Of a DNA stretch of 64,000 bases, positions 1,065 to 61,704 are shown piece after piece. This DNA is from Mytilus trossulus. Lineage: Eukaryota. How positions within the stretch are numbered: the stretch's first letter is position 1; the number at the start of each line of letters is the position of its first letter. A model generated the notes under the pieces. That model searched no databases, had not been told where the DNA came from, and worked only from the letters and a program-made list of their open reading frames with translations. The DNA lies in NCBI RefSeq assembly GCF_036588685.1, contig NC_086379.1:36270001-36334000 (forward strand), given 5' to 3'. The position numbers were made by a program, and so were the translations under genes.

Positions 1065-2259
1065 TTAGTTCCGATGCAAAGACCCTATAAGTGAATCAAT
1101 ATTAACGCCAAAATAAGCAATCTTTAATGACCTGACAACAGTATCGTAACTATATCCCTTCTTGATAAGTCTATTTAAAGGTTTTGTTAGTTTCTGAGGT
1201 GAATGCTGACATGTTTGTGCTTTATAAAGAATATTTCCATTAAAAAAAAGGATGTGAAATACCTGAACGTATAAGAATAGATATAGGAAGATGTGGTGTG
1301 AGTGCCAATGAGACAACTCTCCATCCAAATAACAATTTAAAAATTAAACCATTATAGGTTAAAGTACGGCCTTCAACACGGAGCCTTGGCTCACACCGAA
1401 CAACAAGCTATAAAGGGCCCCAAAATTACTAGTGTAAAACCATTCAAACGGGAAAAAGTCTGCATGTTCAGCTATATTTACGAATGATATCCTTATACCG
1501 ATGATAAAATTTAGTAAAGGTTTGACTAGTTTGTGATATCGAAAACCCTGGTGTAATAATTTTTCAGTAATACATAAATTTATCTCGTTAAAATCTAAAA
1601 CATTGTTACATACACGAACGAATCGTACAAGTTGAGATATATAAACACCGTAAGATGGTGACAATGGAACGTCACCATCTAAAAATGGATAATTAACGAT
1701 AGGAAATGAAAAATCATCTCTTTTATCATAAATTTTAGTATTAAGCTTTCCGTTATTGATATAAATATCAAGATCGAGGAAAGGGCAGTGTTCGTTGTTT
1801 GTGTTAGCTTTATTTAAAGTAAGTTCGACAGGATAAATTTCTTTAGTATGCATACTGAAGTCGTCATTATTGAGAGCCAAAATATCATCCAAATATCTAA
1901 AAGTATTATTAAATTTGTTTATGAGATGTTGTTTCGATGGGTCATTGCTGTATTTTGTCATAAATTGTAACTCATTGCAATACAAAAACAGGTCCGCAAT
2001 AAGTGGTGCACAGTTAGTCCCCATTGGAATTCCGATAACCTGACGATATACGGAATCTCCAAAGCGAACAAAAATGTTATCTAGTAAAAATTCAAGGGCA
2101 TATATAGTTTCAAAGCATGTCCAATTGACATAGTTTTTTGTTTTGTTTATTCCTACCAAAAAAATGACCTAAAAGAGTTTGAACATATATATTCACATTC
2201 TGACTTTTTTACATGCCCATTTAATTAGGTGGGTGATTTTTTTCTTAATGAGAATGTGA
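1065..2259 (-). pseudogene. Penelope-like reverse transcriptase remnant
   Basis: ORF pieces 1359-2159 and 1065-1328 are joined by frameshifts and interrupted by a repeat inserted at about 1278-1455. Confidence 0.85.
1278..1455 (-). mobile_element. Short dispersed repeat (family B variant) inserted into the RT ORF
   Basis: AAGATGTGG..GCCAATGAGACAACTCTCCA..GTACGGCCTTCAAC splits the RT C-terminal coding region. Confidence 0.7.
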
Positions 2260-45200: not shown

Positions 45201-48200
45201 ATGGGAGGACTCTTTTCTTCAAAGGGAAAAGAGAAAAAGGCAGAATCAAGAGTTACAGAACAAGACAAAGCAGTATTGGTAAATCAACTCACACAAAATA
45301 AAAAAAATATAAAGAAGATATGACCTGATGACTGCCAAATATTTTCAATCATTGTCAGTATATTGGTCCAATCAGTATTAACAGAGGGTCGTAATTGGGG
45401 TACCTCATGACGGTAACGGTAAAAATTCTTGCCAAATTACATTATTGGTAAATTTTGGTGTATGACGATAAAACAAACACTTTGTTTTAGATGATAAAAG
45501 CAATGACTGATTTTGACGAATCACATTAATTTTTTTCTCCAAAAATGACGGTAATGATAATTATTAGAGACCTATGACGAATCACAATAAGGATATTTTG
45601 ACGAATCACAGTAAAATTTTAAACAATTAAGACACAGGCACTTATGTTTCTAGCAATATGGGGTTTATTATCCATACACGTACGTAAAATCTTTCGTGCG
45701 GGTATGGATAGTAAACCCCATATTGACAGAAACAAGTAACAAGTGCCTAAATTTCAATATGGGGTTTACTATCCATACCTGTACAAAAAATCTTTTGTAT
45801 GGGTATGGTTAGTAAACCCCATATTGACAGAAACAAGTGCCTGTGAATTTATACAAACTAAAGCAATACAATTGGATACTTTTAGTACATTTAGTAAAAT
45901 AAAATTATACACAGAAGTACATGTAATAGTTTATTTTCATTTTTTTCCAGCAATTAAAGCAACAAAGGGACAAACTAAAGCAATACCAAAAGAAGATCAA
46001 TGTACAGATAGAAAAAGACAGAAATGTGGCTAAACAACTGCTGCATGATGGGAGAAAAGAGTAAGTACGAAATGTGGCTAAACAACTGCTTCATGATTGG
46101 AGAAAAGAGTAAGTACAAGTATCATATTTTTAATAAAATCATTGTACAGGTATTTTAATGTGCTTATCTATACAGCTTCTTTTGCATATTACTATCAGTC
46201 AGGGATACTACTTATACAAGTTATTTTTATTTGTTTAAAGAAGTAAAAAAAAATATATATACATATAAGTAAATAAATAATGTTTGAAAAACCGGGTCCT
46301 ACTAAAATGCGCCCGGGAGCGCCCGGGTGGAGAAAAAGCGCCCGGGGAAAAGAAATAGCGCCCGGGGAAGAAAAAACAGCGCCCGGGGAAAAGAAAAAGC
46401 GCCCGGGGAAAAATAAATAGTTATTGTAATGGTATAAGACAACTTTGTGGCAATAAAATAAGTTATGTAAATTGATTTTTTTTAATTTTAGACAAGTATT
46501 TTGCAAATAAAGATAATAGACATTTGTTATAAAGCACAGACACATCTAAGAATGTTTCAATTTAAACAATAATATATGAATACTATTTGGAAAGACAGAT
46601 AATAATGGATCACAGTTAATGCTGAAGTTTTATAAAATGCAAGACATCAAAAGACATGTTTTTCAAAAACGATTTGAAAATGAAAACTAAAAAAAAAACC
46701 TTAAAATTCACATAAACAAAAATCAGCAAATGAAGCAGTACTATACATGTACCGTATAGGTAAAACAATGGTTTAAAAAGCAGGAGTTTAATTTTAAAAC
46801 TAAGCATTAGAACACTGATAAGCATAGCCATTTAAAGAGATTCAGTTTTAAAATAAAGAAATAATTAATCTATATCAACATCTGCATATAAAACTTTTAC
46901 TATTTTGAAAAAGCACTTAAAGTACAAAAAGTAAATATTAAAACACTGATAAGCAAAGCCATTAAAACAGTTTCAGGTTAAAAAAAAAGATATAATAAAT
47001 CTTTATCAGCGTATGCATATAAAACATTTACTATTGTTAAAAAGCACTAAAAGTACAGCACTATGCGTCTTACCACCTATTCATGCAAACTGTAAATTAC
47101 ATTACTGTACAAAACAAATATAAAACAATGCACATTAAAAGTTATGTTGAAAATTTCAAGGTAGTGGTCTTGTTGCTTCGAATACGCTTCTTTTGGTTTG
47201 GCTTCCTTGCGGTGGTTGGAGTTTTGGGAATCTTTAATTTTCCATCGGATGATTCCACAAAATTGTCTCTTGGTTTGCTTAAATTCATTAACTTTCTGAA
47301 AATGGCGTCCTTTTCTTTTGCACATTTCGACGACCATACCACATCTGTTACTTGAAGTTTTCTAGCCCAAGGAGCCAACGCATAGTTCCCCTGGCCATGT
47401 AATGCTCGGCGTATATCTCGATACTGTAATTGAACAATTTTGTGTAGTTTGCCTATAAGGTCCGGGAGCTTTACGGCTTTCCAATTTGTAGAAAGTTTTA
47501 AAATATTGTTCATGGATTCGCATGAATTGTTCTTCCAGTTAATTGGGGCAATGTCTTTTTGTGCCGGTTCCCAAACATAGTTCTTGAGAGATGATGTACT
47601 ACAGCTAAAGTAACGTTGAAACGCGGGAACACTGTACTCGTACTTCGCTTCCAACTCCATTACCTTTAGGTCAAACTCAACATCATCAGGAGAAGAGAGG
47701 AGACCATCTACACCAAACACATCGTGGAGCACAGTGTTGTAGTTTGGGTCTTTTTCGCCAATGACTTCCCGCAAATGTCTCTTAAAATTTTCCTCAATGT
47801 GACGTGTGCAAAGAATTTGCTGGGAATCTGGAAAGCACTTCTGTATAGCTTTCGTCAAAGCCTTTTCCTCGTCCGAGCCAAATACAAGGCTTTTGCCACT
47901 AATCTGTGCTCCAGGAATATCGTCCAAAAAGCACTGGAGGTGGCTAAAAAATCGATGGTAAGTGTGGAAGCAACCGTCCCAGTGGAGGTAGCATGGCCCA
48001 AGCATGATTGGTGCTGGAGTGTTAGAAACCTTTCTTATTAAGTTCTGGTTGTGAAAAACTGTAACAGTAACATATGCAGCCCCCAAATTAAAAGTGCGGT
48101 CAACCCCAATGATATGTTTAGATTCGGACGAGCAGAATTTCTTGAGATCGAGAAGTTGTTCATCAGTATACACTACTACTGAAGGGGGTTTGCCGGAGAG

Positions 48201-51200
48201 TTGAACAATTTCTTTAATAAACGGATGACCATGTTGCATACTCATTAATGTTTGTATGTCGTCGGCATTATTAGATGCCTTCTGTTGATGTGGACGATCC
48301 CTTTTCTTCTCGTTGTACTTAAAATTTTGTATCTGTTTCAAGTCTCTTGGGGCTTCCATAGAGTCATCTAACGCTAGATCGGTATAAATTTCCCTGCAAT
48401 TCTGTGTTTTTACCATTCCCTTGATGTCATCAACAATTTGTGCATTTGTTCGGATGTAATCGCCATGTCCATTTTTATTATTTCCATGCAGACTTTTTGT
48501 TGTTGGGAAAATACCAATGTATTCCACGAACGCTACCCCATTGCCGCTTGCTGGGCTCTCGGGACTAGTAACAACCCATGATATTCTCCTTTGATATTCC
48601 GGCAAGCGCTGTAGTTTTGTGTATGCTCGCTTCAACACTAACACTTCTGTTGGATTTGGTTGTGGTTCTAGCGGAACTCTTGCACCCTTTGCTGTTTTTA
48701 CGAAAAGGCCGTTTTGGAGATCAATATACTGCAAACGCCCATTTTGGTACACAAATCTGTGGGTCTTCAAAGAAACACGACCCCAGGCACCACAATCATC
48801 TACATATTGTCTACTTTTCCCTTGTTTTTCCCTCTGTTCGTTATTTGTATTGTCAACCATATATCCAATGTTGTTTTTAATTCCACGTGGAATATGCATC
48901 TCCTTGTTTTTAGCATCATTTGATAAGACAAGCACGAGTTCGTCAGTGCTTAAAAATTTGCCATTGTTTCCCCTTCCATTCGGAACTTTAATGCTTGATT
49001 GTTCAGTATTGTCTAAATCGGATATTTCAGAAAACTCATCGCTCGTGTTTTCTGCCATATAATCATCATGCATATATGTACCTGCTCTTATAGGCGACGA
49101 TGTTTTCATAGTGATTGAGTGTTCCATGATCTCAGTGTTATCAAGATCTATAGTAGTTTGGTAAGTTTGGTACATAGAAGGTTTTCTTATCAAAGGCACA
49201 AAGTGATTCGCCGACCATGTGATAGTGTGATCAGGGGGTGAACAACTTGTCCACATAACAGTAAAGGTTCTATCTGTTTCATTTGATGGTAAGCATGTGG
49301 TATTCAGAGTAATGAACGCAAGATCACCAGTGCCGTTAACTGGAGGATACACAACCCTTATATTGTTTCCAGTGATATTGCTCAATGCGTGAATTGTCCA
49401 TTGTGAAGAATAACCGCCGGGTTTTGAACAGTCAATACATGACTTATTGTAACTTGGGGAGACTAGGAGAATGTTTGTATAATTATCAATCTTAGAATAC
49501 GCTTCACTGTTTAATGACATTTCAATGCAAGTACGGACACGGAGTTCGGTCACAAGACTGTTGTCACCCACGAGGGCCATAGAAGCAGAACTGAACAGAC
49601 AACTCCCATCTGTTAAAGACGCCAATGGGACACCTGAAACCAAAATAATATAGTTTAATAGATCGTTCCAATGTTGTGCTGTCCCAGGTCAGGGGAGGGT
49701 TTGGATCATTTACTTTTTACATAAATTAGCCCATATTTTTCTTGTTTGAATTGTTTTACATTTTTATTTTGGGGACCTTTTATACAGCTGACTATGCTTA
49801 AGTTTGCTCATTATTGAAACCCGTATGGTGACCTATAGTTATAGTTGTGAATTTCTGTGTCATTTGGTCTCTTGTGAAAAGTGGGTTCATTGGCAATCAC
49901 ACAAAATCTTCTTTATATTTTGGACATATAGTGTAAAGAAATTCCACTTATTTACGTATATACATACCCAGTATAATTCAAAGCCTCGAGATAGACTAAA
50001 AGTTTAGAATGCATGTGACTTCACTATTGTCCAGTTATTTTGCTGTCTTTTATTATATGACAAACGAGACAGTGAATTCAAATGCTTCATATGAACCAGA
50101 TATAACTTTTTTTTTTGTATTATATATTTTAAAGCTTAATGTTATTATAAATATATATTTCCGGTATTTTCTTTATGCCATCAAAAATCTCTCACCATTC
50201 TCGTTCATCTTGTATTGTTTCAACAGCAGTTTGGAAGTAGAATGTTCCGAGTGTACCGCCAACTTCTCTTCGTTGTTCTCATCTTGAGTCATTGTGGGAA
50301 GCAATCCCTTTTCTCTTTTACAGCAAAATCGTAGGTAATTTAATCCCTGTTCACCAGCCTAAAAGTAATCAATTACATAGTCATATAACAAAAGACTCTG
50401 CAGGTTCATATATAGATTCTTATATATGAGATACACACAAATGGTTTTGAATATTAACGATTGTGGTTAATTGGATTACCGTAATCAGCGTGTCGTGTGT
50501 ACAGTTAACGATTGTTAATTAGTCTTATCTTCTTTCATTACAATTGGATTACCGTAATCAGCGCGTCGTGTTTACAGTTTACGATTGTTAATTAGTCTTA
50601 GCTTATTATATTTATAAATATACATTTCATTTATTACTTTAAACATACATATAATTTTTAAAAATGAAAACGGGGGAGAATAATGAAAATTAAAATTCCA
50701 TAAGCGTACATTTTGACTGAACAAGAAGTTTTATTATTTTCTCTCTTATTATTTATATAATATATTACAAATCTCACCTCTGTCAATCTTAATAATGCTG
50801 AGGTGTATGTGTATTCGTCTGATTGTTCATGGGAAAAACACCCTTTGCACGAATAATTCACATTTTCTTCTGTCAGGAACATTTCATAGTCTGCCAATTC
50901 CAACTCTTCACATCGTAGATGGTACCACGTATCACAATTGTCACAGCAGATGCTAGCAATTTTACAGTTTTTACGGCATATCCCACAGTTCCGGAATATC
51001 ATATTAGCTTTAGCTTTTGCAGTAGGTTTAACTTTTCTTTTCTTAGTGGCAGGCATATTGAAACCCTTCCTCAATCTTCAACCGTCAATTCAAGTATGTT
51101 TTGTAAAATACAAAACTTTGAAAAGTGTTCACCATGCAGTTGCGAATATTAGACCTCAGGCAACGCTTATTTTTAAATAACGAAGTATACGTTTTGATCG

Positions 51201-54200
51201 AAGACAATATAGTTCATGATTTTTCTATAAACTCTTGTTTATATTTACTAACTATAAGTAAACTATATAAAATTTTGAAATCTTAAATGTAAAAATGCAA
51301 CAACACCATCTACACACTTTAGATTTAGCATCGTGCATTTTCCCATTTATATTAAGGACATAACAAGCAAAATTTCCTTTTTTATTCAAGAAAACATTAA
51401 TGTTGTAAAATTTTATTTATTTTATTCTCCCCGGGCGCTATTTTTTCTTTCCCGGGCGCTTTTTCTTTTCTCCGGGCGCTTTTTCTTTTCCCGGGCGCTC
51501 CCGGGCGCTTTTTAGTAGGACCGGAAAAACCTTCCCTTAATTTTCTCAAAAATTTACTTGTATAACATGTATAAGTAAATTTTTCTTACAATCCCACAAA
51601 AGTCCTCAAGTTTTGAGATGTTAATTTATGCTGTTAATAATTTTTCCCAGGTTTGCTCAATTTTTTTTATGAGAACTCAATGTTTCATCTCATTTATTCA
51701 ACAAAGAAACTGATTGTGCAAAGATCTTAAGTATTTTTGCAAGGCATTCAAAAATTGCTCCTTGGGGGGGGGGTTGTAAATGAGCAGTGTTCTGAAGATA
51801 ACAAACAAATGGTACATTGTATTTTCATTGTCCATGAAATTACACTTAAATGATAAGTAAAGACATCTGCAAAGGGCAGTTATCTATAATTTAAAATTCT
51901 ATTAGAGCAAAGAAATCATAAGAATTCAATAAAAGAAAATAAGATGACTTGGTTACTTCTACAAGTAAAAAAATCTGAATTTCTAAGGGACATAACTCAG
52001 CCAATATTTTTTGTTTACCTATACATGTAGATACAAGTTAATAAAATTCACTTGTATAAGTATCCAACAACAAATTTACTTATATAAGTATATTAATATT
52101 ACTTCTTCCAGTAATTAAACATAACTTGTACAAGTAGTACCCATGACTGACTATTCTGTTCAAAAAATCTGTAGTACTGGAAATCTACTATTTTGTTACT
52201 TAAGAATTGTTGTAATATTTAGGTACCTGTATTTTACAGTACTTGATTTGTACTAGAAATTTAAGTACTACAGATTTTTGGAGTTTGTCGTTTTCAAATC
52301 TCATAAAGTTATGATGTTTAAACATGGAATACTGTGATCATTGTTGGTATTGTTTTTGTACCAATATTTTAAGTACAAATCAAGTACTGGAATATACAAG
52401 TACCTAAAAATTACAATAATTCTAAAGTAAAGAAATAGTACTAAATATTAAAAGTAAATTTCCAGTACTACAGATTTTAAGTACAGAAAAAGTACCTATG
52501 CTAAAGTAGCTTTGTTACTATAGGAGATTTTGACTTATGAAAATACCATTTGGACAAGTCTTTTACAACTTACAATTACATCATTTTCTCTCATCTTTTT
52601 AGCCCATTCAGGGGCGGATCCAGAACCTTGATGTCTGGGGGGGGCACCATGAAACCAAAATTTTAGATTTTTTAGAGATGTATATACGGTATATGCGTGT
52701 GAGTGTTTTGTTTTTAGGTTGTTATTTTTTTTAGAAGGATCAGATCAGATCATCGTTTCTATATCTTTATATTTCTAGATCTTTTATTGTTTTTATTTAT
52801 TTCACTTTATACTTTCTTTCTGTCAATAGATCTTTATCATATTTGTCCTCAACATGCATCAAAGATTTGCCACTGGACGTCAAACAACATACAATCAATC
52901 AATATTTTCTACCATCACTTCTATATTTGTTTGACCTTGCTTCCAGACTTACTTTTTTGGTAAAATATTCTAATTTCTGTAAAACATCTTCATATCCTTA
53001 CAAATGGTGACCTTTTTTTAGCCTCGTACATGTACATGGCAATTGAAACAAGAAAAATAAACAAATATAACTAAATGCTCCACCATTAAAAAAAATGATT
53101 AAGTCCCAGATTCAGTTACAAAAGAAAATGTCAACTCATCATGTTTTCCTAGGCCGGTGGAAAAGGGGGGGGGGGGGGGGCAATTGTCGATTTCCCATGT
53201 AAAATAAGAGGGAGGGAAATAGGACATTCCATTTATAAATCAAACGTGTATGGTATTTTAAAATAATAAATGATTTGATTTATTGCTGAATAAATTCACA
53301 AAAAGACGGTTTTGAAGAGAGAAAAAACATAAATTCTAAATAAAATGGTATTGTGAGTACTGTATTTTGAACTGAAGAGAAACTAAGTACTATTAAAATA
53401 TAGATGTATACCAACATTAAACATATAATTTGTAGTGCAAAGCTCTCATTCCTTTCACGGATTTGGCTATACTTTTTGGACCTTTTGGATTATTGCTCCT
53501 CATCTTTTATATAAGCTTTGGGTTTTTAATATTTTGGCCACGAGCATCACTGAAGAGACATGTATTGTCGAAATGCGCATCTGGTGCAAGAAAATTGGTA
53601 CCGTTTATTTATTACTACCACTGGGTCGATGCCTCTGCTGGTGGACTATTAGTCCCCGAGGGTATCACCAGCCCAGTAGCCAGTACTTCGGTACTGGCAT
53701 GAAAATACGGATTTTTGTGTTATTAAAATTTGCTGTTACAAATATTAGAAATTATTATAAATTAAGGAATGTATCTCCCTCGTGCAAAGCTCTCATTCCT
53801 TTCACGGATTTGGCTATACTTTTTGGACCTTTTGGATTATTGCTCCTCATCTTTTATATAAGCTTTGGGTTTTTAATATTTTGGCCACGAGCATCACTGA
53901 AGAGACATGTATTGTCGAAATGCGCATCTGGTGCAAGAAAATTGGTACCGTTTATTTATTACTACCACTGGGTCGATGCCTCTGCTGGTGGACTATTAGT
54001 CCCTGAGGGTATCACCAGCCCAGTAGCCAGTACTTCGGTACTGGCATGAAAATACGGATTTTTGTGTTATTAAAATTTGCTATTACAAATATTAGAAATT
54101 ATTATAAATTAAGGAATGTATCTCCCTCGTGCAAAGCTCTCATTCCTTTCACGGATTTGGCTATACTTTTTGGACCTTTTAGATTATTGCTCCTCATCTT

Positions 54201-57200
54201 TTATATAAGCTTTGGGTTTTTAATATTTTGGCCACGAGCATCACTGAAGAGACATGTATTGTCGAAATGCGCATCTGGTGCAAGAAAATTGGTACCGTTT
54301 ATTTATTGTACCTATTCTTTAAAGGTACACAGATCAGGAGTTTCACCTGGTAATCGATCTTAATCTTTATTGTATAATTATAAACCAATAAAAATTCGTA
54401 CTATTCCAATCAACATGTATATGTATTTTCCATAATTTAAGCTTCCAAAGAGACATTAAAAACACACAAAAGTGTCAATATTTACACACCCATCAATAAG
54501 TTGTCATAAATCACGCATGTGGACGCTGGCATTAATTAACGACCAGTTTAAGAAGTCAAATCAAGCTGTGATTCATTTCCGCTCTAGATAAGAAGATTCA
54601 ATAGCAATAAAATTATGTTAGAAATTATTTTTTTTGTGACCTGAAATGGGGGGGCACGTCCCCTCTGTGCCCCCCGGTAAATTCGCCACTGCCATTGAAA
54701 AGTAGTGAAAATAAGAAAGTGGAGTTTGACAAAAATATGAGAAACAATTGATAAATACAATATTATTAATTTTCAATCAATTGATTCGATTTTTTCCTTT
54801 AAACTAAAACTGAAATATTTATGAATATGAATATTTCAATAACTATGTTGCAAAAGTAGAAACATTTACAGTTAAACAGTCAATAATTCAGTCTGAAAAA
54901 TACTTGTAGATTTGTGTCAATTTTTTTAACTTTAAACATTACTTGATTATCTATTTTCTTATCTGAATGAAGGCAGATGCTACTTTTAAAAATAACTGCT
55001 TTTAAATGTTTTTACTAGTATATGCATCATATTTAATGTTACATTTTATTGACTTAATGTTTTCAGATATTTGCATACTAATCTTTATTATCTTTCTTTT
55101 CACAGTAAAGCTAAGTTAATGTTGAGAAAGAAAAAGTTCCAGGAGTCATTACTGGAGAAGACTGATGGACAGTTAGATAACATAGACAGAATGGTATTAC
55201 TAATATTTATCTCAGAAATAACAAATGTATTTTATTTCAACATATTCAAGAGGCTGAGCTGCTATTTCTAATCATGTAATGCCAGAAAGGGGGTCTCATT
55301 GGGGGTTCCGATCCCGGATCACGCTTACTGTTTTGTCAGATTCCTGTATCCTGCTTACACTATGTACGTAAGCAATTCTCATTTTTTGTCATTTCCCGGG
55401 TCCCTCAAGACCTAATTTCCTTTTTTCACGCCACATTAATTTGACTTTCACGTGTCACGCTTACAAAAAATGGGCAAACTTGCGTCACGCTTAGACCCCA
55501 ATGAGACCCACCAGAAACAAATTTCAGATAACATGAAGTGCCATGAAATATATAAAAAACAACAAATGTGGTATGATTTTTAATGAGAGATTAATTATCC
55601 ATCAGAGTTCAAATGATATGGATGCAAGCTAGTCACTCTGAAGGACTTTTTTTTACTAAATTGTCAACTATCAAATAATTATATCTGTGGTAAATATGAT
55701 CTTGAATACTTTACACATTTTAAAAATGCAAAATTTTATTCCATATATTATGTCTTGATTTTGCTTACTATTCTTAATTAGTTTAAAAGCAGGTAAGAAT
55801 TGACAAATTCATGTATGTGTTGCATTTTACAGGTGACTGATTTAGAATTTGCTCAAGTTGAAAGCCAGGTTGTTCAAGGACTTAAAGTAGGCAATGAATC
55901 CCTGAAAAAATTACATCAGGTATGTATTAAATATACACTAGTACAAGTTTGTATGATGAATAATTCATAAGAACTTATAAATATAAAAATGGAAACTTAA
56001 GTTTGCAGTTTTAGTCTAGTATAATTCATTTGTAAGAAGAATACTTAACAACATAAATCCTATGTGACATATTGCTTCAAACCAACACACCAATGAGTAA
56101 AATCATGGATACTCAAACTGTATGAAAAAAAAAGTTTGCCAAAACCGGATATTGTAAGTGCTCTTGCAGTACAATAACATTATGTAATTTTGTTTAAGGA
56201 ATGACTGTAATATTTTTTCTGTCTATGAAGAAATAACATAATAATTTGGTGCACACTAAATAACGCACGTAGCGGGTTATTTAACAGTGTGCACCACATT
56301 TTTTATGTTATTTCGAATAGACAGAAAAATATTACAGTCATTTCTTAAAGTTTAATTCTAAATTCCATTTTCAACCATAGAAAACTATGAAAAAACGTTG
56401 ATGATGTTATGGTCACATGACTAAACTATGTCTATGGGCTCATAACAAAATAATGTCAGCCAATCAGAAGATGTGTTACAACCAAAATTAAATTACTTAC
56501 ACATGTATGGGACTAACAAATATATTTTTATTCAATGTCGAAAAAAAAAAAAAAAAATGGAGAAAAAATATCTTTTCTTGAAAAATAAAAGTTTATGATA
56601 CTATTAACATCATCATATTTTCTTGTAAATTTCTAGCCAATATTTGGTTGCACAGCTTAAATGCTATTGTTTGTCATTTGGGCTGAAATTAGGTATGCTG
56701 TATCTTAACATTTGACACTCATTACAGTGTTATACCTTTAACATTTATCATGTATATGTAACCATAAATATACTATGTCATCACAAATATACCATGTCAT
56801 CACAAAAATACAATGTCATCACAAATAAAATGTAATCCCAAAAATACTATGTCATTGTAAATATTTTACCAGGTAATCACAGAAATACATTGTCATTGCA
56901 AATATTTGTCCATGTCATCACAAAAATACTATGTCATTGTAAATATTTTACCATGTAATCACAGAAATACTATGTCATTGCAAATATATCATGTCATCAT
57001 AAAAATACTATGTCATTGTAAATATTTTACCATGTAATCACAGAAATACTATCAATAATGATTTTTTTTAGCTGCTGTCACTAGAAGATGTTGAAAAGAT
57101 AATGGATGAAACCAGAGAAGGAATAGAATACCAACAGGTGAGTTCTGTTTATAGTATAGATGGGATAATAATATAAGGTTTTGGGGATTCATATGTATTT

Positions 57201-58844
57201 TAAGGTTGTACACGAAAGAAGAAAAATTGCTAGCACATTTATATGTCAATTTTAAGACAGTTTAAAGATTTTTTTTGTAGTTTTAAACATTAATCTAAAT
57301 AATTTTATTCCAATTCTAGTTGCAACAATAGGAAAAAAAAATTCCCAAATTTCAGTTTATTTCTTTCAATTTAGTTGTTGTATTTTCCATTATTTTTTAA
57401 ATAGAAGGAAAAGTAAATGTTTTTTGATAGCAGTGTATTTTCTAATCGTTTCAGGAAATAGATGATCTATTATCAGGAGGACTTTCAGCTCAAGATGAAG
57501 ATGATGTGTTAGCAGAACTTGACGCTATTGTACAGGTAACATTTGGAATTCATATTAAAGACGCCCAAAAAACAATTTGATTATTGATTAACAAATATTT
57601 GGTCAAACTTACATCATGAAATGCCTTGAGTCAACAGTAAATAATCATAGCCAAAATGTCATCTCCTTTTAAAACAAAGTTCATATGAGAAAAGATGTGC
57701 AAATAATGAAGGGTTGAGATTTGCTAATTTATTTTGTTTTAAAGAATATTGTCATATTAAAGCAGAAAAACAACTAATACCATACAAAATTATGATGAAA
57801 CAGCCGATAATTAATAAATGCATTCTAACCATCTGTGAATGAATTTCTTGAGTTGTAAATCAACTTTTTCACACTGATTTCAAGAATATGTCTCCTTTTT
57901 TTCAGGCTGAAGTAACAGATGAACTACCTGATGTACCAGACGATGAACTTCCTGAAGAGAAAAGGAAAGGTAAAAAAATGAATATAGTTGTAGCCAAGGA
58001 TCCAGAAATATTTTCACCTAATTTCGGTCATTTTCATATAACTTAAAAGTTGGTGCCCCTTACTCGTAGCATCAAAGAACTTGTTTCACTGTTGCATCAC
58101 ATTTACTTCATTATTTATCCTACCATTTGACTAAAATCGACCAAGAACAATTAAGGGAAGGCAACAGTTTAGAAATAAAATGATTTTAAAGACTCAAAAC
58201 AAAAATATGTTCAAAATGGTGATTTCGAAACTCGATCTCAACGAAATGACCAAAATTTTTTCTGTTGAAAAATAAAATTTGACCTAAATCCCAAGAACAC
58301 GTTTAGGACAAAAATACTTTCAGTTTAGGACAAGACTGGCAAATATGACTGTTTCCTGACCATTGGTTGTAGTCAATTTTTTCATGTTGATATGTTACAT
58401 GAAAATCTTTTCAATCCTTCTCCTGGTCAAGTGAGTGGCAATTCACTGTCAGAAAAAAAAAATTGTTGAAAATTTTGCTTTGTAAATGGCAAAAACCCTG
58501 CTGTTTGAATAGATTTTTGTTTTAGTCCCAGTAGAATTTAGTATACATGGGAGATAATTTGTTGCGTTTTACATTACTTGCCTGTCAATGCGGTTTGGTC
58601 ATGGTATCAGTAAAAAAACGAATACCCTATAGGAAAATAATAAGAAAGGAGATGTGGTGTAAATGCCAGTGTGACAACTATCCACTTGAGACAAAAGAAC
58701 ATTTAATAATATAGAATGTATAATATACAATAAATAAAATAAAATTGAGAATGGAAGTAAAGAAAGACTGTTTTAATATACTACTCATATTTTGTAGACA
58801 AAGCCAGGAAAGAGAAAAGACAAGCAGAAGCCCTTGCATCATGA
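45201..58844 (+). CDS. CHMP6: Charged multivesicular body protein 6 (ESCRT-III, Vps20; 8 exons, 206 aa)
   Basis: Exons 45201-45278, 45951-46060, 55106-55193, 55833-55919, 57072-57137, 57455-57535, 57906-57969, 58798-58844 (621 nt). Myristoylation-type N-terminus MGGLFS, SRVTEQDKAVLQLKQQRDKLKQYQKK, LEFAQVE..V.QGLKVGNE, MDETREGIEYQQEIDDLL, and MIM2-like LPDVP. Confidence 0.96.
45633..45845. repeat. Tandem double hairpin (duplicated palindromic MITE) in CHMP6 intron 1
   Basis: Two copies of CAATATGGGGTTTA.TATCCATAC ... GTATGG.TAGTAAACCCCATATTG, bounded by CACAGGCACTT / AAGTGCCTGTG. Confidence 0.7.
46294..51523 (-). mobile_element. Intact, putatively autonomous Mutator-like (MULE/MuDR) DNA transposon in CHMP6 intron 2
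   Basis: TIRs GGTCCTACTAAAA (46295) and TTTTAGTAGGACC (ends 51522), extended by arrays of GCGCCCGGG (6 left, 5 inverted right). The 8-bp direct repeat GAAAAACC flanks it at 46286-46293 and 51524-51531. It contains an uninterrupted spliced transposase gene. Confidence 0.93.
47142..51056 (-). CDS. PHD finger + vertnin-like OTU protease + MULE DDE transposase fusion (3 exons, 977 aa)
   Basis: Exons 51056-50778, 50358-50196, 49633-47142 (2934 nt, GT-AG, phases 0 and 1). PHD CGIC..ICCDNCDTWYHLRC..CKGC. OTU-like DGSCLFSSAS ... NHFVPL. MULE catalytic motifs GVDRTFN, FGSDEE, CTRH (CxxH) and NSCESMN. Basic NLS-like tail KPNQKKRIRS. Confidence 0.9.
53544..53587 (+). ncRNA. Hammerhead ribozyme (type I, minimal), copy 1
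   Basis: GCATCA-CTGAAGA-GACA tgtat TGTC-GAAA-TGCGCA-TC/TGGTGC. Palindromic stem III ATGCGCAT; predicted cleavage after AUC at 53581. Confidence 0.9.
53891..53934 (+). ncRNA. Hammerhead ribozyme, copy 2
   Basis: Identical to copy 1, offset +347; predicted cleavage after 53928. Confidence 0.9.
54238..54281 (+). ncRNA. Hammerhead ribozyme, copy 3
   Basis: Identical to copy 1, offset +694; predicted cleavage after 54275. Confidence 0.9.
55289..55511. mobile_element. MITE with GGGTCTCATTGGGG TIRs
   Basis: Flanked by the direct repeat CAGAAA / CCAGAAA. Confidence 0.65.
56197..56495. mobile_element. Hairpin-plus-tail element (tentatively Crypton-like, non-autonomous)
   Basis: About 70-bp arms around ACGCACGTAGCG, followed by a tail with GTCACATGAC and CCAATCA. 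Same architecture at 20448-20860 and 20880-21155. Confidence 0.45.
56762..57053. repeat. Degenerate 20-23-bp tandem repeat abutting the CHMP6 exon 5 acceptor
   Basis: Repeated AAATACTATGTCATCAC / GTCATTGTAAAT units. Confidence 0.75.
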
Positions 58845-60606: not shown

Positions 60607-61704
60607 CTTATTGGTCATATCACTCTATTAACTTATTGGCCATATCACTCTATTTACTTATTCGTCATATCACTCTATTAACTTATTGGTCATATCACTC
60701 TATTAACTTATTGGTCATATCACTCTATTAACTTATTGGTCATATCACTCTATTAACTTATTGGTCATATCACTCTATTAACTTATTGGTCATATCACTC
60801 TATTAACTTATTGGTCATATCACTCTATTAACTTATTGGTCATATCACTCTATTAACTTATGGGTCATATCACTCTATTAACTTATGGGTCATATCACTC
60901 TATTAACTTATGGGTCATATCACTCTATTAACTTATTGGCCATATCACTCTATTAACTTATGGGTCATATCACTCTATTAACTTATGGGTCATATCACTC
61001 TATTAACTTATGGGTCATATCACTCTATTAACTTATGGGTCATATCACTCTATTAACTTATGGGTCATATCACTCTATTAACTTATGGGTCATATCACTC
61101 TATTAACTTATTGGCCATATCACTCTATTAACTTATTGGCCATATCACTCTATTAACTTATTGGTCGTATCACTCTATTAACTTATTGGTCATATCACTC
61201 TATTAACTTATTGGTCATATCACTCTATTAACTAATTGGCCATATCACTCTATTAACTTATTGGTCATATCACTCTATTAACTTATTGGCCATATCACTC
61301 TATTAACTTATTGGCCATATCACTCTATTAACTTATTGGTCATATCACTCTATTAACTTATTGGTCATATCACTCTATTAACTTATTGGTCATATCACTC
61401 TATTAACTTATTGGTCATATCACTCTATTAACTTATTGGTCATATCACTCTATTAACTAATTGGCCATATCACTCTATTAACTTATTGGCCATATCACTC
61501 TATTAACTTATTGGTCATATCACTCTATTAACTTATTGGTCATATCACTCTATTAACTTATTGGTCATATCACTCTATTAACTTATTGGTCATATCACTC
61601 TATTAACTTATTGGTCATATCACTCTATTAACTTATTGGTCATATCACTCTATTAACTTATTGGTCATATCACTCTATTAACTAATTGGCCATATCACTC
61701 TATT
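60607..61704. repeat. 25-bp minisatellite, about 44 copies
   Basis: Unit TTGGTCATATCACTCTATTAACTTA with variants TGGGTC, TTGGCC and CTAA. No spacers. Confidence 0.95.

What the first reader, a model, noticed from the sequence alone, without database searches (positions are those of the whole stretch)
53435..54307. Hammerhead retrozyme array in sense orientation inside CHMP6 intron 2, able to release 347-nt RNA monomers or circles
Seen: three identical minimal hammerheads 347 nt apart (cleavage after 53581, 53928, 54275). Each has a palindromic stem III (AUGCGCAU) and lies on the CHMP6 pre-mRNA strand. Established: minimal type I hammerheads of metazoan non-LTR retrozymes cleave as dimers through this palindrome and produce small circular RNAs, thought to be mobilised by Penelope-like RTs. 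Inference: host transcription could both generate two monomer circles and cut the CHMP6 intron co-transcriptionally. A Penelope-like RT remnant is in the same window.
Basis: partly seen in the sequence, partly recalled or inferred. Interest (0 to 1): 0.7.

Follow-up and report, generated by a model that had tools for sequence, protein, structure and literature searches.

The report
Intronic mussel retrozyme carrying Naiad hairpin
This is a young, 2.5-copy insertion of a very abundant repeat that carries self-cutting RNA motifs, likely the already described mussel "retrozyme"; it sits on the transcribed strand of a CHMP6 intron, where it likely does little to the gene, and it shares a predicted RNA hairpin with the start of one Naiad jumping gene, which likely supplies the enzyme that copied it here.

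Summary
Observation confirmed: three identical type I hammerheads 347 nt apart (cuts after 53581, 53928, 54275), sense to CHMP6, in its 9-kb intron 2. They belong to a 2.5-unit copy of a family with 4,346 identical-pattern cores in this genome, matching the published mussel non-LTR retrozyme in anatomy. The copy landed in a MITE-like repeat (14 of 14 paralogues empty) with a short target duplication. Two first-reader points fail: the published mussel ribozyme cuts as a single motif (about 0.1/min; dimer need was shown for axolotl), and the RT remnant in the window is a chance neighbour (36,769 candidates) from a Naiad family sharing no motif with the repeat. An effect on CHMP6 is untested and likely small. 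The better lead: arrays share one 3' end 32-35 nt past the cut site, just before a 62-nt hairpin that is 87% identical to the start of a second, intact Naiad family whose copies end in the same register. That likely names the helper RT. This scan had already noted that link on other DNA of this genome; I verified it here. I did not find it in print.

The parts
53435..54307 (+). Retrozyme insertion, 2.5 units of 347 bp, 5'-truncated at unit position 201, 3' end at +32 after the last cut site
53544..53587 (+). Type I hammerhead 1, predicted cut after 53581
53891..53934 (+). Type I hammerhead 2, predicted cut after 53928
54238..54281 (+). Type I hammerhead 3, predicted cut after 54275
53582..53928 (+). 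Predicted monomer 1 (347 nt, 39% GC)
53929..54275 (+). Predicted monomer 2; carries three changes, two of them (54082, 54181) seen in none of 65 other loci, usable as locus markers
53618..53679 (+). 62-nt predicted hairpin shared with the 5' start of a Naiad family (copy 1)
53965..54026 (+). Second copy of the shared hairpin
54276..54307 (+). 32-nt 3' tail ending 4 nt before where the hairpin would begin: inferred start of reverse transcription
53430..53434 (+). Left copy of the target duplication (3 bp unambiguous, 5 bp if two T shared with the element end are counted); right copy 54306-54310
52609..54692 (.). Host MITE-like dispersed repeat (about 1.2 kb when empty) interrupted by the array
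45201..58844 (+). CHMP6/Vps20 gene, 8 coding exons; intron 2 = 46061-55105 holds the array 798 nt before the 3' splice site
1068..2168 (-). Broken RT of a Naiad element (family 1); not part of the system, chance neighbour

Best explanation
The array is a recent insertion of an abundant hammerhead-bearing repeat, likely the described mussel non-LTR retrozyme, likely pasted in by a Naiad reverse transcriptase, and it is likely a near-neutral passenger in CHMP6 intron 2. Steps: (1) shown: the family is dispersed in thousands of copies; this copy interrupts a MITE-like repeat and is flanked by a short target duplication. (2) Published for the mussel family, not tested here: multimeric transcripts self-cleave slowly (about 0.1/min), monomers are ligated, most likely by RtcB, and circles accumulate. 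(3) Shown: arrays end 32-35 nt past a cut site and start anywhere; the end lies 2-4 nt before a 62-nt hairpin that also opens an intact Naiad family whose own copies end 1-6 nt before it. (4) Inferred: the Naiad protein binds the hairpin, nicks AT-rich DNA and starts target-primed copying just upstream of it; since the cDNA here crossed three cut junctions, the template was a circle or an uncleaved multimer. (5) Inferred: CHMP6 transcription passes through the array and some transcripts or excised introns release 347-nt monomers, a small addition to the family pool; cutting is slow relative to the 0.8-1.5 kb left to the 3' splice site, so most CHMP6 pre-mRNA would still splice.
For: 4,346 core matches, control 0; 232 full-length matches at 95-100% among 40 of 1,164 candidate regions scored. 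Empty site in 14 of 14 paralogues of the host repeat. Fixed 3' end: 52 of 54 stretches end in the tail; 35 of 36 terminal copies with an internal reference unit end at +32 to +35; 5' ends scatter over the unit; DNA contigs of four runs show many loose ends with mixed flanks at 53605-53610. All three units share a minority base (6 of 180 units, 3 of 51 loci), as expected for passes round one template. Naiad match: 69 nt, 87% identical, E 1.6e-19, directly before a 1,000-aa frame with GIY-YIG-like, CxC, DKA and RT motifs; same predicted fold, z -3.3 and -3.5; 3 of 23 pairs with changes on both sides over 8 sequences; 107 exact copies of the Naiad form; 9 of 10 terminal Naiad copies end 1-6 nt before it and 6 of 6 tandem junctions run into it. 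Internal RT initiation with a required downstream RNA region was shown for a lizard PLE (PMC11167929). With k 0.1/min and 1-3.8 kb/min, 9-30% of transcripts are cut before the 3' splice site is made. 42-44% of Xenopus retrozyme copies overlap introns (bioRxiv 10.64898/2026.07.22.740005).
Against: No cleavage, circle or RT binding was measured here. The published sequence could not be seen, so identity with the tested clone is inferred from size, copy number and anatomy; three related families exist in this genome and the clone may be another one. Equilibrium folding gives stem I a probability of 0.02 or less in three linear contexts, and the isolated motif folds no better than shuffles (z 0.55). 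Only two Naiad families were examined and no other PLE clade. The 8-sequence alignment is small and related. If intron 2 persists 5-10 min, 78-95% of transcripts could be cut at least once (upper bound), so neutrality leans on exon tethering reported in mammalian cells. The same preprint reports a significant depletion of retrozymes from introns. No run showed whether the array-bearing allele is expressed.
Confidence: 0.72

Rival explanations
1. One reading: tandem hammerheads cut fast as dimers through the stem III palindrome, sever intron 2 co-transcriptionally and measurably lower CHMP6 output from this allele.
For: Sense orientation and three perfect cores; the palindrome duplex is stable (-10.5 kcal/mol) while the monomer stem III costs about 3 kcal/mol; fast intronic ribozymes abort splicing and the CPEB3 ribozyme tunes its host (passages, PMC10919898); retrozymes are depleted from Xenopus introns (preprint).
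Against: Published mussel rate is slow; hammerhead-cut introns still spliced (passages, PMC2995048); the array is only 0.8-1.5 kb from the 3' splice site; stem I is predicted to be mostly mispaired in context; the copy is young and one of thousands, so intact cores need no selection.
Confidence: 0.12
2. The insertion was made by another PLE (for example Naiad family 1 or a Poseidon, Neptune or Hydra element), and the shared hairpin is a captured piece or an internal promoter rather than an RT-binding signal.
For: Naiad family 1 is very abundant and its copies also end in an AATTTTA(TT)-like stretch; Xenopus retrozymes derive from hammerhead-bearing pLTRs (preprint); only two families were examined.
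Against: Family 1 shows no significant similarity to the repeat; the match to family 2 is limited to the hairpin, keeps pairing through changes on both sides and lies at the shared end point.
Confidence: 0.12
3. The array grew by DNA-level tandem duplication after a short insertion, or was copied from an uncleaved linear multimer, so no circle was involved at this locus.
For: Uncleaved RNA is the dominant substrate for the lizard PLE (PMC11167929); shared variants among units fit local duplication too. This is compatible with most of the best explanation and differs only in the template.
Against: Empty paralogues and a target duplication exclude origin from the flank; short arrays with non-integer unit number and one fixed end are the rule; circles dominate the RNA pool in mussel tissue (PMC7229834).
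Confidence: 0.2

Closest known systems
Non-LTR retrozymes of Mytilus galloprovincialis (Cervera and de la Pena 2020, PMC7229834; review PMC7761336)
   Same: Type I hammerhead in about 350-bp low-GC tandem repeats, thousands of copies, related families, no LTR; circle fold predicted to block the ribozyme.
   Different: The papers give no insertion-end analysis that I saw and state that no motif points to the helper; here a fixed 3' end and a hairpin shared with a Naiad are found. Sequence identity with their clones could not be checked.
Naiad Penelope-like elements (Craig et al. 2021, PMC8557442)
   Same: 5' truncation, partial tandems, AT-rich targets; family 2 shares the hairpin and the end register with the repeat.
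   Different: Autonomous, 3.4 kb, encode EN and RT, lack a hammerhead (none found in the family 2 unit).
Poseidon of Anolis (Frangieh et al. 2024, PMC11167929)
   Same: Internal initiation of reverse transcription downstream of a hammerhead, with RNA needed 3' of the start site.
   Different: Autonomous, canonical C-terminal EN clade, protein-assisted minimal hammerhead.
Xenopus retrozymes as pLTR derivatives (bioRxiv 10.64898/2026.07.22.740005)
   Same: Retrozyme-PLE sequence sharing; introns are a common location.
   Different: Vertebrates only; partners are hammerhead-bearing PLE termini, while here the partner lacks a hammerhead and shares only a 62-69-nt segment.
Co-opted intronic ribozymes (CPEB3, PMC10919898; amniote intronic hammerheads, recalled)
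   Same: Self-cleaving motif on the sense strand of an intron.
   Different: Those are single, old and conserved; this is a young copy of a multi-thousand-copy mobile element.

Membership tests
Metazoan non-LTR retrozyme | Type I hammerhead with full core in every unit | tested here: met
   Rfam gave no hit at gathering score
Metazoan non-LTR retrozyme | Tandem units of 150-450 bp, GC under 50% | tested here: met
   347 bp, 39% GC
Metazoan non-LTR retrozyme | Dispersed, mobile, many copies | tested here: met
   empty paralogous sites and target duplication
Metazoan non-LTR retrozyme | No coding capacity, LTR, PBS or PPT | tested here: inconclusive
   No LTR structure at array ends; a 206-codon stop-free frame crosses the array and was not scanned; PBS not searched
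Metazoan non-LTR retrozyme | Self-cleavage of the transcript | not testable with these tools
   published for a mussel clone only
Metazoan non-LTR retrozyme | Accumulation as circular RNA | not testable with these tools
   only assembled contigs were served; family sequence is present in 3 of 3 RNA runs but circles and source locus cannot be told
Mytilus galloprovincialis retrozyme (published clones) | Sequence identity to the published clones | not testable with these tools
   supplement unreadable; no sequence text in PMC4918200 supplements
Minimal PLE/Terminon hammerhead | Lacks helix III and lies in the pLTR of an RT-coding element | tested here: not met
   2-bp helix III with tetraloop; no RT frame beside the array
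Non-autonomous partner of a Naiad | Shares a terminal recognition sequence with the autonomous element | tested here: met
Non-autonomous partner of a Naiad | Same insertion end register as the autonomous element | tested here: met
Non-autonomous partner of a Naiad | Mobilised in trans by that element's protein | not testable with these tools
   needs biochemistry or a cell assay
Co-opted intronic ribozyme | Single, old, conserved at the orthologous site | tested here: not met
   99-100% identical to dispersed copies and inserted inside a younger repeat; presence in other individuals could not be settled

The most novel reading that the evidence does not exclude
The mussel retrozyme is a two-module parasite: a hammerhead that makes the circle plus a hairpin taken from, or shared with, the start of a hammerhead-less Naiad, which recruits the Naiad RT and fixes the start of rolling target-primed copying a few bases upstream; sense intronic copies such as this one use host transcription as a promoter-free source of circles.
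Probability: 0.6. Interest if true: 0.62.

Novelty: new member of a known kind. Interest (0 to 1): 0.4.

Why it matters
The locus itself is ordinary: one of thousands of copies of a described family, in a kind of place where such copies are common. The part that matters is the shared hairpin. The 2020 review says animal retrozymes show no motif that reveals their helper, and the 2026 preprint did not examine invertebrates. A defined 62-nt RNA, an intact 1,000-codon Naiad frame and a predicted start site make the helper question testable in one in vitro assay, and would define a cis signal for Naiad reverse transcriptases. Two private bases in monomer 2 also allow a clean test of whether an intron-borne copy feeds the circle pool.

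Tried and rejected
Rfam scan of the window: no hit at gathering score. Window RT remnant as the partner: rejected. Widely spaced hammerhead pairs as pLTRs of an autonomous element: those examined were separate truncated copies or a chimera of two retrozyme families. A variant hairpin seen proved to be a third retrozyme family, not a Naiad. Presence or absence of the insertion in other animals: not settled, because both flanks are repeats and only contigs were served; one RNA contig runs from the right flank into other sequence but may be a paralogue. Contig depth (repeat 520-1,190 summed, CHMP6 mRNA 11 and 55) was not used as expression evidence. Pfam does not recognise the Naiad proteins; they were classed by the motifs given in PMC8557442. 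Genome-wide sense/antisense bias in introns was not tested (no annotation). A look-up of earlier findings by the hairpin sequence gave nothing. Not-in-print claim rests on searches; the unreadable supplement of PMC7229834 and unread supplements of PMC8557442 may bear on it.
Full report
1. Observation. Tandem Repeats Finder gives 53435-54307, period 347, 2.5 copies, 99% matches. Three identical type I hammerheads have C17 at 53581, 53928 and 54275: 6-bp stem I, CUGAAGA, 4-bp stem II, GAAA, and a 2-bp stem III closed by GCGC, which makes the palindrome AUGCGCAU. Rfam has no match at gathering score. An 8-exon + strand model from 45201 to 58844 translates without stops to 206 aa; three exons hit Snf7 below the curated cut-off and exon 2 matches Vps20 at E 9.8e-6. 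RNA contigs of two of three RNA runs, from other alleles or species, join exons 3 to 8 at or within a few bases of the modelled sites, most with GT-AG ends.

2. What it is. The monomer has 232 matches at 95-100% among the 40 of 1,164 candidate regions scored, and the core pattern has 4,346 exact matches against 0 for the control. Two further related families of 354-356 bp were seen. Size, GC (39%), copy number and family structure fit the mussel non-LTR retrozyme of PMC7229834 (read: parts 1-4 of 6; supplement not readable), which reports about 5,000 motifs in 350-390-bp repeats, cleavage of a cloned repeat at about 0.1/min, abundant circles on northerns and RtcB ligation. That the genome is a Mytilus mussel is my inference (run labels say mollusc; earlier scan notes say mussel). 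PMC7761336 (passages) says invertebrate motifs cut as monomers, amphibian ones need dimers, and reserves 'minimal' for PLE and Terminon motifs.

3. It is an insertion. Both flanks belong to one dispersed repeat with terminal inverted repeats (52609-54692). In 14 of 14 paralogues examined the left flank runs straight into the right one, overlapping by 3 bases in 13 of them: a 3-bp target duplication, 5 bp if two T shared with the element end are counted. The units differ at three sites, and all three carry a base found in 6 of 180 other units and 3 of 51 loci. The copy is young and came from one template lineage.

4. Insertion ends. Of 65 loci I dropped 12 (duplicates, half arrays, one diverged copy) and added the window: 54 stretches. 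In 52 the last hammerhead is followed by the tail and then foreign DNA; two arrays end elsewhere. Of 36 terminal copies with an internal unit for reference, 35 end at +32 to +35 (the other has a 1-nt deletion that stops the scorer); 17 single copies were scored against the window monomer and stop early at subfamily differences (two rows from internal units were set aside). 5' ends scatter over the unit. DNA contigs of four runs show the same pile of loose ends with mixed flanks. One fixed 3' end with variable 5' ends is the mark of target-primed reverse transcription. A cleaved linear monomer would yield only 33 nt from that start, so this cDNA, which crossed three cut junctions, was copied from a circle or an uncleaved multimer (inference).

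5. The helper. The RT remnant at 1068-2168 is 91-94% identical to a Naiad family with N-terminal endonuclease, CxC and DKA motifs (criteria from PMC8557442, section 6 and passages). It has 36,769 candidates, one per 35 kb, so finding one in 64 kb is expected, and the family shows no significant similarity to the repeat. Earlier notes of this scan claimed a hairpin shared with Naiads; I tested that. A second Naiad family, found through an RT fragment in my loci, has intact 1,000-codon frames preceded by a 69-nt segment 87% identical to 53611-53679 (E 1.6e-19), with no other similarity to the repeat and no hammerhead core. Both versions fold into the same three-stem hairpin (z -3.3, -3.5); over 8 sequences 3 of 23 pairs change on both sides. 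The Naiad form has 107 exact copies. Nine of 10 terminal Naiad copies end 1-6 nt before the hairpin position (the tenth has a substitution), 6 of 6 tandem junctions run into it, and retrozyme arrays end 2-4 nt before it. PMC11167929 (parts 1-2 of 4) showed that a lizard PLE initiates inside its RNA and needs sequence 3' of the start, which is the geometry seen here. Binding and trans-mobilisation are inferred. Only two Naiad families and no other PLE clade were examined. Searches did not show this link in print; the preprint 10.64898/2026.07.22.740005 (parts 1-3 of 5) ties Xenopus retrozymes to pLTRs and did not examine invertebrates.

6. Effect on CHMP6. Untested. The cut sites lie 1,524, 1,177 and 830 nt before the 3' splice site. 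With the published rate and an assumed 1-3.8 kb/min, 9-30% of transcripts are cut before that site is made; if the intron lasts 5-10 min, 78-95% are cut once and 25-55% release a monomer. These are upper bounds: the rate is in vitro at 37 C and possibly for a sister family, and stem I has a predicted probability of 0.02 or less in three linear contexts. Passages in PMC2995048 and PMC10919898 report that hammerhead-cut introns still splice while fast ribozymes abort splicing. The preprint finds 42-44% of Xenopus copies in introns, with a significant depletion. Several sense intronic copies in this genome were noted by earlier agents (unchecked). Whether other animals carry this insertion could not be settled. 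Monomer 2 has two bases seen in none of 65 loci, and 54062-54201 had no other perfect match among 40 of 1,437 candidates scored, so locus-specific circles can be looked for.

7. Verdict. Real, correctly located, and a new copy of a known kind; the CHMP6 angle is likely ordinary. The score reflects the verified Naiad hairpin link, which is a property of the family, not of this locus, and which this scan had noted before on other DNA.

Noticed in passing
window 46021-46116: 48-bp tandem duplication of the end of CHMP6 exon 2 including its splice donor; use of the second donor would put a stop codon in frame.
   Followed up: partly
window about 46290-51530: Mutator-like element in the same intron: 848-aa frame on the minus strand with MULE and OTU-like hits, a PHD frame upstream, and inverted ends with 20-bp subterminal repeats.
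   Followed up: partly
L129-L131 (Naiad family 1; remnant at window 1068-2168): In-frame TGA at the same place in 5 of 5 copies checked, plus three more at cysteine-like positions of the endonuclease: looks like the selenoprotein Naiads that PMC8557442 describes for clams and spiders; SECIS not searched.
   Followed up: partly
L133:2900-5100: Chimeric 769-bp repeat in which hammerheads of two retrozyme families alternate, possibly template switching or a mixed dimer circle.
   Followed up: no
L043, L053, L076, L082: Several arrays begin at or within a few bases of the cut site, as if the RT ran off a cleaved 5' end; not counted against chance.
   Followed up: no
L035: Retrozyme copy with an inverted 5' part, a structure typical of Penelope-like insertions.
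   Followed up: no
G000:C5:60421612-60422420 and C11:50396566-50396822: The Naiad form of the hairpin occurs in a 78-bp tandem array.
   Followed up: no
window 5447-32770: Multi-exon gene whose frames look like BPTF/NURF301 (DDT, PHD, bromodomain; name recalled, not searched).
   Followed up: no
window 60607-61704: 25-bp minisatellite, 44 copies, 97% matches, downstream of CHMP6.
   Followed up: no
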